From the NCBI GenBank assembly GCA_000165345.1, contig CM000432.1, positions 1,040,418 to 1,104,417 of the forward strand: a DNA stretch of 64,000 nucleotides, read 5' to 3'. A program made the position numbers. Every line of letters starts with the position of its first letter. Position 1 is the stretch's first letter. This document shows positions 18,001 through 21,000 of this stretch, in pieces.

Positions 18001-21000
18001 CTAATCAATCAAACTTTGTATAGTTATTGAAAATAATCCATCTAATCTAATATATTCTTACTTTTTTTAAATACTTTTTACTCAATTACTATATTTTTGT
18101 TTAAATCAATAACATAAGTTAAAATATCACAAATTTGTTCTTAGAAAAAATATCAAGTACTCTGGTAGAACTGTTTAAGATGAATTTATATTAAAATAAT
18201 CTCCACTTTTCTTTATAACTTAACAAAATATTAATTATTATTTGTTTTTTTTTAATTATTATTTTCAGAAAAAAAATAGTTACTAAAGAGGGGCGAAAAG
18301 TGGGGAAACATTACAAAATGTCAACTTGTACTTTTTAAGCTTCAAGAAATATATAGTAATATTAATAATAATAATTTTTTAAATTAGGCCTACTCTTCTC
18401 ATAGAATAATAATATATAAAAAATAATTAATTTATGATTTTTTCACTTTGAAGATTTATAAATAAATTTTCTACATAAATGAAGAAGAAATTAACTAAAT
18501 TCATTTTAAAAACGGGAATAATTACCAAAAATTCTATTCTTTACAATATTTGTATGTACCTTAAAAATAAAAATAAATGCATGAATTTAGATAATTATAG
18601 GTCTATTGAACTTGCTTGTTTTAATTATTCTTATACAGATATTTTTGCTTCCTTAATATCCCACAATTATTGCCATTTTACTAATATTTTCGGTTAAAGT
18701 TATAAAGCAAAAGGCGGGAAATGTGCCCGCCGAGTGTGTATTGGTGCATTATTTGCACAGGAAAAATACACATGGGGAATAAGAGATGATAAATAGAAAA
18801 CAAAAAAGATAAATGTAATATACGGATATACGAATATATATATACATATATATGTATAAATTTATATATTTATATATGAATTAAGAATTTTAATTATAAG
18901 GATCGTCAGCACAAGAATTGTTGCAAAACTGATATTAAAGACACGATTAATTTTGAATAAGAGAATTGATAAGAAAGTGAGTATACAAAAACAGAAGGAA
19001 AAGTGTCTGAGAAATAAATTAAATATATAAGAATATATGAAGCTGGTTAAAATTGAGTTGCATTTTTCTGCGTATTCTTAACTTTGAAAGATAGAGAAAT
19101 TTGAACTATTTTTAATAAGCTGGGTGCATTCATAGAATTGGCTTTATTTTTATCATGCAATATCTGTATTTTTTATAATTAAAAAAAGGATTAATAAAAT
19201 ATTAAGAAAAATATAAAGTAAACAAAGTAAACCGATTATTTTAAGCAAAAATAAACAGGAATATAAAATGGGAACAAAAATTAAGAATCCACAAAAGACT
19301 TTGAAATGTTGCTTCGAGTGGTTTAAGACATTTAAAATAATGGAAAGTGATGGTGTTGTTTGTAATGATGTTTTTGATGTATTAACCCCAAGCAATTTAA
19401 TATTATTTATTCAGGAATTATCTCCAATGTTTTTTGCCGACTATTCTTTAACAGAAGAACATAATAAAGAAATAGCGAAAGGGCTACATTTCTTAATGGA
19501 CAGTATCAATGACTATATGGACGGTAGATTTTGTGATGAAATTGACGCTTTAGATTATGATTTGATTGCTTCTGCAATTGAAAAAAAAGGTAAGGTGCAA
19601 GATGATATTTTATGTGAAATATGCAGAGTATGTGGATTTGTTATAGTATTTGCAGTAGAAAGTGAGTATAATGAGGATGTCATTAGTAATATGATGATCT
19701 TAAGTGAAGATGCCCAAATAGAGTTGCAACATATGATTCAAGTTACTGGAGAATTTGCTGAGGAAGAAGAAGAGGAAGAACCAGAGGAAGAGGTTGGTGA
19801 TCGATCCGTTTTGGGAGGAGGACAAGTAGGAATAAGTTTGGCTCATGCTGATGAATTGGAGAGAAGAATAGAAACTTTGGAAAGACAACTTAAATCTGAG
19901 CAAAAAGCCAGACAAACAGCAGAGGATGCATTAAAAAAAGCCTCAGCAAAACCAAAGTCTGCAATTGAAGAGACTGAAAAGCTTGAAAATGAAGTATGGA
20001 ATCTGCAAAATGAAAAAACACAACTAATAAAAGAAAAAAAAGAATTAGAAACTAAATTAAAAGGAGATATTAAGGACCTTCAATCTGAAATTGATTTATA
20101 TAAGACAGAAGCTGGAAAAGTCGAAGGATTAGAACAACAAATTAAAAAGCTTAAAGAAAAAGTAGATAGCCTTTTGGACTTAAAAAGACAGAATGAGAAG
20201 CTAATCAAGCAATTAGAGGAATTAGAAGAAAATGGTGGTGGTGGTGGAGGAGGAGATGGAGGAGATTCTGAAGGAAATAAGAAATCATCACAGTTACTTA
20301 AAGACCGAATTTCTGATTTAGAAGAAGAGCTTGAGAAAAATGAAAATGAAAAGGATGAATTAAATGAACAATTAACTAAAGTTAAACAACAATATGAAAA
20401 GCTTCAAAAAGAGCTTAAAATTAAGCAAGACCAAGTTAAAGTTTTAGTTAAGCTTTTAGATGAAAATGGAGTGTCTATTGCAGGGAAGGTTGACATTAAC
20501 TTAGGAGAAGCTGAATCATTTCCTACACCTGGAACAGAAAGCTTTTATATTACTCAACTTTCAATTTTGACAGAACAATTAAATATGCAAAAGCAACTAC
20601 TTTTAAGCGAACAAAAACGCATACAATTATTAGAATCACAAGGGTTGAAAACAAATAGTGGAGATGAGTCAACTCATGCTGATGGAGCTTCAGGAAGTGA
20701 TTTTGCTACAATCAATACCTTAAAGCAGCAAATCATGATTAGAGAACAAGAAGCTGAACTTCACCTTTCTGCTAAAAAAGAGATTGAGAAAAGAACTCAA
20801 ATGGAACTTAAATTATTGTCTACATGCTTGCATGATATGGCACTTAGATATCATCAATGTAAATCTATTATCAAGCAACTTGATGAGGAGCTTTCATCTT
20901 TAAAGCAAAAATGCCAAATATCTATTAATACTGTTGAACAAGAATCTGCTGCTTTTAATAAAGATAATGTTGGTAATTTGAATCAAGTTCCGAATAATGA

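What the first reader, a model, noticed from the sequence alone, without database searches (positions are those of the whole stretch)
18711..18734. E2F-like GC boxes recur in promoters in this window, including an inverted pair at ORC1 and sites upstream of DHFR-TS and the ABC transporter
In a roughly 70% AT genome, short GC cores of the form TTTCCCGCCAAAA, TTGGCGCC or CGCGGGAA appear about 100-350 bp upstream of start codons of many genes here. Coordinates are 3008, 9087, 13605, 18711, 21844, 27093, 34324, 39372, 40976, 45321, 47526, 54606 and 58655; the sites at 39372 and 40976 share an exact 13-mer. The ORC1/Hook divergent promoter has two inverted copies forming a near-palindrome. E2F-like motifs have been reported as over-represented upstream of Cryptosporidium replication genes, and Cryptosporidium retains E2F/DP factors. 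The placement at ORC1 and DHFR-TS fits conserved G1/S control. Their presence upstream of transporters and even a subtelomeric secreted gene (54606, 58655) suggests wider use.
Basis: partly seen in the sequence, partly recalled or inferred. Interest (0 to 1): 0.6.

Follow-up and report, generated by a model that had tools for sequence, protein, structure and literature searches.

The report
Known E2F-like promoter boxes in Cryptosporidium
The short GC-rich boxes are real, far more frequent than chance and conserved across the genus, but they are the E2F-like promoter motif already described as the commonest upstream motif in Cryptosporidium parvum, so the finding is sound and not new.

Summary
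The window is the right end of Cryptosporidium parvum chromosome 4, from cgd4_4320 (ORC1/CDC6) through DHFR-TS to the telomere. All 13 listed boxes are at the stated coordinates.

- **Enrichment.** In non-coding DNA, TTSSCGSS occurs at 12 loci against 0.32 expected. In coding DNA it occurs once against 1.2 expected. GGCGGG is the top over-represented 6-mer in an unbiased scan.
- **Placement.** 13 of 20 promoter-bearing spacers carry exactly one TTSSCGS box. None of 5 tail-to-tail spacers does.
- **Conservation.** Boxes sit at matching positions in six other Cryptosporidium species. The inverted pair between ORC1 and cgd4_4330 keeps a 13-14 bp offset in the five other species sampled for that spacer.

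This is the published E2F-like motif (Bankier 2003, Mullapudi 2007, Oberstaller 2013, Xiao 2025). The 2007 study already included both the cgd4_4320 and DHFR-TS promoters.

- The ORC1 pair lies 540-760 bp from both start codons, not 100-350 bp.
- Nothing supports calling the neighbouring gene "Hook".
- The DHFR-TS box is a weak variant and the least conserved one. A G-box is the best conserved element there.
- The shared exact 13-mer is really a 15-mer.

Binding by E2F/DP is still inferred. Verdict: real, already known, low interest.

The parts
18713..18731 (.). Inverted pair of E2F-like boxes, GGCGGG-N7-CCCGCC, in the 1300-bp divergent spacer between ORC1/CDC6 (cgd4_4320, minus strand) and cgd4_4330 (plus strand)
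   Evidence: Searches show the sequence and the inverted repeat. The pair is conserved with a 13-14 bp offset in C. meleagridis, ubiquitum, felis, bovis and andersoni.
18732..18787 (.). Conserved block directly after the pair: RAGTGTGTATTGGTGCATTATTTGCACA ... ATACACATGGGGAATAAGAGAT. It contains CACACA-type and TGCA-type (ApiAP2-like) motifs.
   Evidence: Four-species alignment A1 and six-species alignment A3. The TGTGT columns are invariant in all six species.
18286..18331 (.). ORC1-proximal conserved block about 320-365 bp upstream of the ORC1 ATG: two G-boxes (GAGGGG, GTGGGG) plus AAAATGTCAACTTGTAC
   Evidence: coordinates. It matches the G-rich motif that Mullapudi 2007 (PMC1779779) found upstream of all replication genes studied.
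812..821 (.).
3009..3019 (.). Palindromic box TTTGGCGCCAA in a divergent spacer, 206 and 508 bp from the two ATGs
6869..6895 (.). Intragenic box TTGGCGGGAAA followed by TGCATGCA, inside the gamma-tubulin complex protein coding region
   Evidence: It is nucleotide-identical in C. meleagridis and C. ubiquitum. One coding hit is what chance predicts.
9087..9099 (.). TTTCCCGCCCAAA, 349 bp upstream of the adaptin gene
   Evidence: A box sits at the aligned position in C. meleagridis, ubiquitum and felis; in felis it is TTGGCGCCAAA.
13605..13618 (.). TTTAGGCGCCAAAT in a divergent spacer, 206 bp from the RING-finger gene ATG
   Evidence: Conservation is at the 96th percentile within its spacer.
21844..21854 (.). 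TTGGCGCCCTT, 223 bp upstream of diacylglycerol kinase
23968..23990 (.).
   Evidence: Conserved in C. meleagridis and C. ubiquitum.
27093..27106 (.). TTTTGGCGGCAATT, 364 bp upstream of the START-like gene (minus strand), abutting the stop codon of the RING gene
   Evidence: Conservation is at the 94th percentile within its spacer.
34324..34335 (.). TTCCCGCCAACA, 445 bp upstream of a minus-strand hypothetical gene
39372..39387 (.). TTTTCCCGCCAAAACT in the divergent spacer between the PHD/RING gene and the OTU gene, 289 and 229 bp from the ATGs
   Evidence: A box lies 215-290 bp upstream of OTU in ubiquitum, canis, felis and bovis.
40975..40990 (.). GTTTCCCGCCAAAACT, 149 bp upstream of the ABC transporter. 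It shares an exact 15-mer with the site at 39373.
   Evidence: A box lies 82-152 bp upstream of ABC in all five other species.
45321..45332 (.). CCCGCCAACATA, 185 bp upstream of the amino-acid transporter
   Evidence: A box lies 148-206 bp upstream in ubiquitum, felis, bovis and andersoni.
47526..47562 (.). Weak E2F-like box TTGGCGCAAAA, 139 bp upstream of DHFR-TS, followed 10 bp later by the conserved G-box ATGTGGGGATTTAACTT
   Evidence: The box is kept in C. canis (TTTTGGCGCCAAAG) and C. felis (AGGCGCA), degenerate in C. ubiquitum, and absent in C. andersoni. The G-box is kept in parvum, ubiquitum, canis and felis.
54606..54615 (.). CGCGGGAATT, 108 bp upstream of the 938-aa subtelomeric gene
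   Evidence: Comparable boxes occur in C. canis (GCGCGGGAAAT at 136 bp) and C. felis (CCGCGAAAA at 96 bp).
58655..58667 (.). TTTTGGCGCTCAA, ending about 46 bp upstream of the ATG of the telomere-anchored cysteine-rich secreted protein gene
62981..63047 (.).

Best explanation
These are instances of the E2F-type cis-regulatory box that marks most Cryptosporidium promoters. The consensus here is TTTSSCGCCAAA, with a central CG inside a 5-6 bp G/C core flanked by T and A runs.

Proposed mechanism: heterodimers of the parasite's winged-helix E2F and DP proteins recognise the G/C core and the T-run. C. parvum has 2 annotated E2F and 2 annotated DP genes; counts differ slightly between papers. Binding about 100-400 bp upstream of the ATG would keep the promoter open and drive transcription, often in both directions from a shared spacer. 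Gene-specific timing would come from neighbouring ApiAP2-type motifs (TGCATGCA, CACACA, G-box). The ORC1/cgd4_4330 spacer carries two inverted boxes 13-14 bp apart, which could take two heterodimers.

Shown here: motif identity, enrichment, restriction to promoter-bearing non-coding DNA, roughly one box per promoter, and positional conservation across the genus.
Taken from the literature: presence of E2F/DP genes, and E2F motifs in open chromatin.
Inferred: that E2F/DP is the binder, and that binding activates transcription.
For: - **Match to the E2F consensus, above chance.** TTTSSCGC 8 vs 1.07. TTSSCGSS 12 vs 0.32 in non-coding DNA but 1 vs 1.2 in coding DNA.
- **Unbiased scan.** GGCGGG is the top non-coding 6-mer; TGGCGC, GGCGCC and TTGGCG also rank high.
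- **Placement.** 13 of 20 promoter-bearing spacers hold one TTSSCGS box, against 0 of 5 convergent spacers.
- **Genus-wide enrichment in syntenic loci.** Non-coding TTSSCGS is 13-27 times expectation in meleagridis, ubiquitum, bovis and andersoni, and 2.6-5 times in the GC-richer canis and felis. Ratios inside genes are 0.5-1.5.
- **Positional conservation with turnover among E2F-compatible variants.** Examples are TTCCCGCCC to TTGGCGCCAA, and GGCGCC to GGCGGC.
- **Conserved module.** The inverted pair plus GTGTG/TGCA block is kept in six species.
- **Literature.**
  - PMC3734150: E2F is the most abundant upstream motif, and E2F/DP genes are present.
  - PMC4117751: protein-binding microarrays of C. 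parvum AP2 domains give TGCAT, CACACA and G-box motifs; the paper treats E2F as a non-AP2 motif.
  - bioRxiv 10.1101/2025.01.17.633476: E2F is the top motif in sporozoite ATAC-seq regulatory peaks, usually a single site per peak.
  - PMC7840661: E2F and AP2_1 motifs lie within 100 bp upstream of lncRNAs.
Against: - No direct evidence of E2F/DP binding or of transcriptional effect exists, either here or in the library I could search. The 2025 review PMC12246861 says most regulatory components lack validation.
- The trans factors lie outside this window, and I could not examine them with these tools.
- 7 of 20 promoter-bearing spacers lack a TTSSCGS box, so the box is not obligatory.
- Transcription start sites are unknown here, so the geometry relative to the TSS is untested.
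- The focal pair is 540-760 bp from both ATGs, unusually far.
Confidence: 0.8

Rival explanations
1. The boxes are bound by a different sequence-specific factor, not E2F/DP. Candidates are an Sp1-like C2H2 zinc-finger protein recognising a GC box, or an uncharacterised factor.
For: Several sites contain GGGCGG-like strings, such as TTTCCCGCCCAAA at 9087 and GCCCGCCCGAA at 812. C. parvum is reported to encode about 27 C2H2 proteins (PMC3734150, Table 2). No binding data exist for E2F/DP.
Against: Many sites are palindromic GGCGCC, GCCGGC or GGCGC forms with no GGGCGG (3009, 13605, 21844, 23980, 47526, 58655, 62981). Orthologous positions switch between CCCGCC and GGCGCC forms. What all variants share is the E2F definition: SSCGS with T/A-run flanks. 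In PMC4117751, AP2 domains gave TGCAT, CACACA and G-box motifs, and E2F is treated as a non-AP2 motif.
Confidence: 0.1
2. The boxes are specifically a G1/S or DNA-replication regulon signal, as in animals and plants. On this view their presence at ORC1 and DHFR-TS is the meaningful part.
For: ORC1 carries a deeply conserved double site. DHFR-TS has a box at -139. Mullapudi 2007 found a CGCCAA-core motif in a subset of replication genes that peak at 2 h (PMC1779779).
Against: The boxes sit upstream of adaptin, RING-finger, OTU, ABC transporter, amino-acid transporter, DAG kinase and secreted subtelomeric genes at the same density. The DHFR-TS box is the weakest variant and is lost or degenerate in ubiquitum, bovis and andersoni, whereas the adjacent G-box is conserved. 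Published clusters carrying E2F motifs peak at every time point (PMC3734150).
Confidence: 0.07
3. The boxes work without a dedicated factor. Short G/C islands in AT-rich DNA could exclude or position nucleosomes, or act as CpG or structural marks.
For: The spacers are 15-30% GC and the boxes are their most GC-rich points. ATAC-seq peaks coincide with them (bioRxiv 10.1101/2025.01.17.633476).
Against: The constraint is on a specific pattern (central CG, S flanks, T/A runs), not on GC content. Other GC-rich 6-mers are not enriched in the same way. Exact register is kept across species separated by about 50% protein divergence.
Confidence: 0.03
4. Chance or compositional artefact.
For: None beyond the shortness of the motif.
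Against: No shuffle out of 100-200 reached the observed counts. Coding DNA shows no enrichment. Enrichment is independent and positionally conserved in six other species.
Confidence: 0.005

Closest known systems
C. parvum 'E2F-like' over-represented upstream motif family: Oberstaller 2013 motifs 3 and 4, [C/G]GCGC[G/C] and GGCGGG. First noted by Bankier 2003; a CGCCAA core was reported in Mullapudi 2007.
   Same: Same organism, same sequences and same upstream location. cgd4_4320 (1301-bp upstream region) and DHFR-TS cgd4_4460 (481 bp) were in the 2007 gene set itself. The published work already notes use beyond replication genes (genes in 163 of 200 expression clusters, 2,379 genes) and typically a single site per open-chromatin peak.
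   Different: Nothing essential differs. This analysis adds positional conservation in six other species and the conserved inverted pair at cgd4_4320/4330. I did not find either in the papers I searched.
Canonical eukaryotic E2F/DP site TTTSSCGC. One example is the Arabidopsis pair TTTCCCGCC / TTTGGCGGG (Ramirez-Parra 2003, as cited in PMC3734150). The structural basis is in Zheng 1999.
   Same: Same consensus: a symmetric CG core with a T-run, read on either strand, located in promoters.
   Different: In animals and plants these sites mark a cell-cycle regulon controlled through Rb-family pocket proteins. PMC3734150 reports no Rb orthologue in C. parvum, and here the box is at most promoters regardless of gene function.
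Paired inverted E2F sites in classical promoters, namely the adenovirus E2 early promoter and the overlapping inverted sites of mammalian DHFR (from my own knowledge, not checked with tools)
   Same: Two boxes in inverted orientation close together at a replication-related gene (ORC1/CDC6).
   Different: The spacing here is 13-14 bp centre to centre. The pair lies 540-760 bp from both ATGs in C. parvum. No cooperativity data exist. It could serve cgd4_4330 as well as, or instead of, ORC1.

Membership tests
E2F/DP binding-site class (TTTSSCGC) | Sequence: a G/C core with a central CG, flanked by a T-run (an A-run on the other strand) | tested here: met
   8 exact TTTSSCGC matches vs 1.07 expected. 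12 non-coding TTSSCGSS loci vs 0.32 expected. The site list gives the consensus TTTSSCGCCAAA.
E2F/DP binding-site class (TTTSSCGC) | Location in promoters rather than coding or terminator regions | tested here: met
   Non-coding 0.66 per kb vs coding 0.02 per kb. 13 of 20 promoter-bearing spacers vs 0 of 5 convergent spacers. Position relative to the TSS could not be tested because no transcript data are available here.
E2F/DP binding-site class (TTTSSCGC) | Evolutionary constraint on the site | tested here: met
   Boxes at orthologous positions in six other species. Non-coding enrichment in every species.
E2F/DP binding-site class (TTTSSCGC) | A cognate E2F and DP winged-helix protein encoded in the same genome | not testable with these tools
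   The genes are outside the window. The literature reports cgd1_1560 and cgd6_1430 (E2F) and cgd7_3650 and cgd8_1850 (DP) (PMC12246861; bioRxiv 10.1101/2025.01.17.633476).
E2F/DP binding-site class (TTTSSCGC) | Physical occupancy or binding by E2F/DP | not testable with these tools
   No binding data were found in the searchable literature.
E2F/DP binding-site class (TTTSSCGC) | Preferential association with G1/S and replication genes | tested here: not met
   Boxes occur at similar density upstream of transporters, RING, OTU, adaptin and secreted genes. The DHFR-TS box is the weakest and least conserved. This lowers the claim of a 'classical cell-cycle regulon', not the claim of an 'E2F-type site'.
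C. parvum E2F-like upstream motif family (Oberstaller 2013) | Core [C/G]GCGC[G/C] or GGCGGG, over-represented upstream of C. parvum genes | tested here: met
   GGCGGG 8 vs 0.32 and GGCGCC 5 vs 0.17 in non-coding DNA. Organism identified as C. parvum by exact protein matches.
Sp1-type GC box (GGGGCGGGG) | An asymmetric GGGCGG core shared by the sites | tested here: not met
   At least seven sites are GGCGCC, GCCGGC or GGCGC forms with no GGGCGG, and orthologous positions interchange the forms.

The most novel reading that the evidence does not exclude
The E2F-type box may be the ancestral, genus-wide promoter-defining element of Cryptosporidium rather than one motif among several. It typically occurs as one copy per promoter, holds its position for the whole history of the genus, and tolerates swaps among E2F-compatible variants. 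The ORC1/cgd4_4330 spacer would carry a fixed-geometry double site: inverted boxes 13-14 bp apart followed by GTGTG/TGCA motifs, kept in all six species sampled, from the intestinal species to the gastric C. andersoni. That double site would load two E2F/DP dimers cooperatively. Boxes in a tail-to-tail spacer (23980) and inside a coding region (6869), each paired with TGCATGCA, would mark unannotated antisense or lncRNA promoters.
Probability: 0.4. Interest if true: 0.4.

Novelty: already known. Interest (0 to 1): 0.2.

Why it matters
Cryptosporidium is reported to be the only apicomplexan that kept E2F/DP, and no Rb orthologue has been found in it. How a handful of E2F/DP proteins could run most promoters is an open question for this pathogen. 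This window does not open that question; the field already states it.

What it offers is well-defined test substrates:
- single conserved boxes at compact promoters (OTU, ABC transporter, amino-acid transporter);
- a deeply conserved inverted double site at a bidirectional promoter that includes ORC1.

These are convenient targets for reporter mutagenesis, EMSA, DAP-seq or CUT&RUN. The cross-species positional conservation shown here is modest extra evidence that the boxes are functional.

Tried and rejected
- **Strict 6-bp core in distant species.** SSCGSS at first suggested the motif was nearly absent in C. bovis and C. andersoni, at 0.3 per kb. Relaxing to 5-bp cores with T/A flanks showed the boxes are there, for example TTTGGCGCT and TTTTGGCGGTT, and 13-27 times enriched. 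I dropped the idea of 'loss in deep lineages'.
- **Orientation bias.** Asymmetric boxes relative to the downstream gene split 10 vs 6 across all loci, and the counts are not independent. No signal.
- **Structured RNAs.** An Rfam scan of the whole window, run in case the conserved spacers held structured RNAs, gave 0 hits at gathering thresholds.
- **'Hook' identity of cgd4_4330.** There is no Pfam hit at E<=0.001. All database names are hypothetical or uncharacterized. The C. meleagridis orthologue has only a weak CCDC39 coiled-coil hit.
- **Published direct evidence for E2F binding or knockout.** Three literature searches found none. PMC11337648 only used the E2F gene's promoter as a weak driver.
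- **The E2F/DP proteins themselves.** They are not in the window. A homology search seeded from a remembered metazoan E2F sequence would have been swamped by metazoan hits, so I ran no further search on it.
- **sRNA catalogue.** PMC9465071 has no mention of cgd4_43xx loci.
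Full report
**Where the window comes from.** The window is 28.9% GC. It encodes an ORC1/CDC6-like AAA+ protein (15361-17967, minus strand), an ABC transporter (41133-45167), an amino-acid transporter, DHFR-TS (47671-49236) and other genes. Several proteins match C. parvum entries exactly: EAK87413 ORC/CDC6-like, the cgd4_4330 hypothetical protein, DHFR-TS, and a 'signal peptide containing cysteine rich protein, gene anchored to telomere'. 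The DNA around DHFR-TS is 99.95% identical to a 1.1-Mb C. parvum chromosome record. TTTAGG telomere repeats start at about 63070. The window is therefore the right end of C. parvum chromosome 4.

**Checking the observation.** All 13 listed sites are at their coordinates. The focal site is GGCGGGaaatgtgCCCGCC at 18713-18731, a 6-nt inverted repeat with a 7-nt gap.

Enrichment over the whole window, against dinucleotide-preserving shuffles:

| Pattern | Observed | Expected |
|---|---|---|
| TTTSSCGC | 8 | 1.07 |
| TTSSCGSS (strand hits) | 21 | 1.70 |
| TGGCGCCA | 2 | 0.06 |

I then split the window into 44.9 kb of coding and 18.2 kb of non-coding DNA. The split used the long ORFs plus one intron-containing gene mapped from the C. 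meleagridis annotation. All of the excess is non-coding:
- TTSSCGSS: 12 loci against 0.32 expected in non-coding DNA (largest of 200 shuffles was 2), and 1 against 1.2 in coding DNA.
- SSCGSS: 17 against 1.1 in non-coding DNA, and 5 against 4.6 in coding DNA.

An unbiased k-mer scan of non-coding DNA, against an order-2 Markov background, puts GGCGGG first among 6-mers (8 vs 0.32; Bonferroni-corrected P 4e-6). TGGCGC, GGCGCC and TTGGCG are also near the top, alongside TGCATG and CACACA. Those last two, with the E2F motif, are the published C. parvum upstream motifs.

**Anatomy.** By spacer type, 13 of 20 promoter-bearing spacers (divergent or tandem) contain exactly one TTSSCGS locus, and none of the 5 tail-to-tail spacers does. 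Distances to the downstream ATG are mostly about 100-365 bp. The focal pair is the exception. It lies in a 1300-bp divergent spacer, 537-550 bp from the cgd4_4330 ATG and 746-759 bp from the ORC1 ATG.

- 812, upstream of a minus-strand ORF that runs off the left end of the window;
- 23980, in a tail-to-tail spacer;
- 29432, a weak box;
- 62981 and 63039, upstream of the last ORF before the telomere;
- 6869, inside the gamma-tubulin-complex gene.

The sites at 39373 and 40976 share an exact 15-mer. Asymmetric boxes show no orientation preference relative to the downstream gene (10 vs 6).

**Related sequences.** Homologues of ORC1 and DHFR-TS gave syntenic loci from six other species: C. meleagridis, ubiquitum, canis, felis, bovis and andersoni. 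C. meleagridis was sampled only around ORC1 and C. canis only around DHFR-TS. Gene order is conserved. TTSSCGS is enriched in non-coding DNA in every species but not in annotated genes:

| Species group | Non-coding, observed/expected | Genes, observed/expected |
|---|---|---|
| meleagridis, ubiquitum, bovis, andersoni | 13-27 | 0.5-1.5 |
| canis, felis (GC-richer) | 2.6-5 | 0.8-1.1 |

In bovis and andersoni the cores are usually 5 bp, as in TTTGGCGCT and TTTTGGCGGTT. This is why a strict 6-bp search first under-counted them.

Boxes are positionally conserved:
- upstream of OTU, at 215-290 bp in five species including C. parvum;
- upstream of the ABC transporter, at 82-152 bp in all six;
- upstream of the amino-acid transporter, at 148-206 bp in five (the C. 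canis annotation merges this gene with the ABC transporter, so its spacer is uncertain).

In alignments with ubiquitum and felis, 10-bp windows at the C. parvum boxes rank at the 26th, 96th, 95th, 97th, 75th, 90th and 94th percentile of conservation within their spacers. Where the sequence does change, it changes to another E2F-compatible form, such as TTCCCGCCC to TTGGCGCCAA, or GGCGCC to GGCGGC. That pattern is what constraint on a binding specificity predicts.

**The ORC1/cgd4_4330 spacer.** The inverted pair is kept with a 13-14 bp offset in all six species sampled for this spacer (C. parvum plus meleagridis, ubiquitum, felis, bovis and andersoni). It is followed by a conserved GTGTG ... 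TGCA block. The right-hand CCGC and the TGTGT columns are invariant.

A second conserved block lies closer to ORC1, at 18286-18331. It consists of two G-boxes plus AAAATGTCAACTTGTAC. Mullapudi 2007 included this very promoter (cgd4_4320, 1301 bp upstream). That study found a G-rich motif upstream of all replication genes examined and a CGCCAA-core motif in a subset. Sequence alone cannot say whether the pair serves ORC1, cgd4_4330 or both. All sources call cgd4_4330 hypothetical and it has no Pfam hit, so 'Hook' is unsupported.

**DHFR-TS.** The box at 47526 (TTGGCGCAAAA) is a weak variant. It corresponds to TTTTGGCGCCAAAG in C. canis and AGGCGCA in C. felis. It is degenerate in C. ubiquitum and absent in C. 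andersoni. The best conserved element in this promoter is the G-box ATGTGGGGATTTAACTT at 47546-47562. The inference that placement at DHFR-TS fits G1/S control is therefore weak.

**Mechanism.** The sites fit the E2F/DP consensus. The literature adds the following:
- C. parvum encodes E2F and DP proteins, which other apicomplexans lack.
- E2F-like motifs are the most abundant upstream motif, over-represented upstream of genes in 163 of 200 expression clusters comprising 2,379 genes (PMC3734150).
- AP2-domain protein-binding microarrays gave TGCAT, CACACA and G-box motifs, and the paper treats E2F as a non-AP2 motif (PMC4117751).
- E2F is the dominant motif in sporozoite ATAC-seq regulatory peaks, usually as a single site, and more than half of those peaks are bidirectional promoters (bioRxiv 10.1101/2025.01.17.633476).
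- E2F and AP2_1 motifs lie within 100 bp upstream of lncRNA start sites (PMC7840661).

The most likely mechanism is that E2F/DP heterodimers bind these boxes, open or activate most promoters, and leave gene-specific timing to neighbouring ApiAP2 motifs. Binding itself remains an inference. The 2025 review says most components lack validation (PMC12246861), and my searches found no binding or knockout study.

**Rivals.**
- An Sp1-like GC-box factor does not fit the GGCGCC and GGCGC variants, or their interchange at orthologous positions.
- A G1/S-specific regulon does not fit the near-ubiquitous distribution.
- A purely structural GC island does not fit the pattern-specific constraint.
- Chance is excluded by the shuffles.

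**Verdict.** Both the motif and its wide use are already published, for this organism and for these very promoters. The additions here are genus-wide positional conservation, the conserved inverted double site, and two boxes outside ordinary promoters. These are incremental. Novelty: already known. Interest: 0.2.

Noticed in passing
window 23968-23990: A tail-to-tail spacer between DAG kinase and the START-like gene is 607 bp long, far longer than the 88 bp in C. andersoni. It holds TGCATG next to TGGCGCCA, conserved in C. meleagridis and C. ubiquitum. It looks like a promoter for an unannotated antisense or lncRNA transcript.
   Followed up: partly
window 6869-6895: Inside the gamma-tubulin complex protein coding region, TTGGCGGGAAA is followed by TGCATGCA. 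The string is nucleotide-identical in C. meleagridis and C. ubiquitum while the flanks vary. It could be an internal or antisense promoter, or simply reflect coding constraint.
   Followed up: partly
window 18286-18331: Two G-boxes (GAGGGG, GTGGGG) plus AAAATGTCAACTTGTAC, about 320-365 bp upstream of the ORC1 ATG. The AAAATGTCAACTT core is invariant in four species. This is possibly the true ORC1-proximal promoter element.
   Followed up: partly
window 18732-18787: About 55 bp after the E2F pair is conserved in four species and contains nested inverted repeats (TGTGTATT...AATACACA, GTGCA...TGCAC). This may be a composite ApiAP2 site or a transcribed hairpin. Rfam finds nothing here.
   Followed up: partly
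window 47546-47562: The G-box ATGTGGGGATTTAACTT, about 110 bp upstream of DHFR-TS, is conserved in parvum, ubiquitum, canis and felis. It is better conserved than the adjacent E2F-like box.
   Followed up: yes
window 63070-64000: The TTTAGG telomere array carries many single-base length errors, a poly-C run near 63897, and a non-telomeric tail (…CTAGAGTCGACCCGCCAGGCCAGCCAAGGACCTGG) that looks like adapter or vector sequence or an assembly artefact. The TTCCCGCC at 63742 inside the array is probably a sequencing error, not a site.
   Followed up: no
window 62572-62835 (minus strand) and 60784-62571: The last ORF before the telomere is only 87 aa and follows a 1.8-kb stretch with no long ORF. 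It may be a degraded or frameshifted subtelomeric gene, or a first exon.
   Followed up: no
L008 17464-17483 and 1243-1262 (C. andersoni); L006 999-1016 (C. felis); L007 14806-14826 (C. bovis): Other spacers in other species also carry two boxes 11-14 bp apart, in direct, inverted or everted orientation. This hints at a preferred paired geometry beyond the ORC1 spacer.
   Followed up: no
L013 (C. canis) and L006/L010 (C. felis): These species have much GC-richer spacers in this region (0.47 in canis, 0.33 in felis, against 0.21-0.24 elsewhere), yet the boxes stay at the same positions. They make useful natural controls that separate the motif from its AT-rich context.
   Followed up: partly
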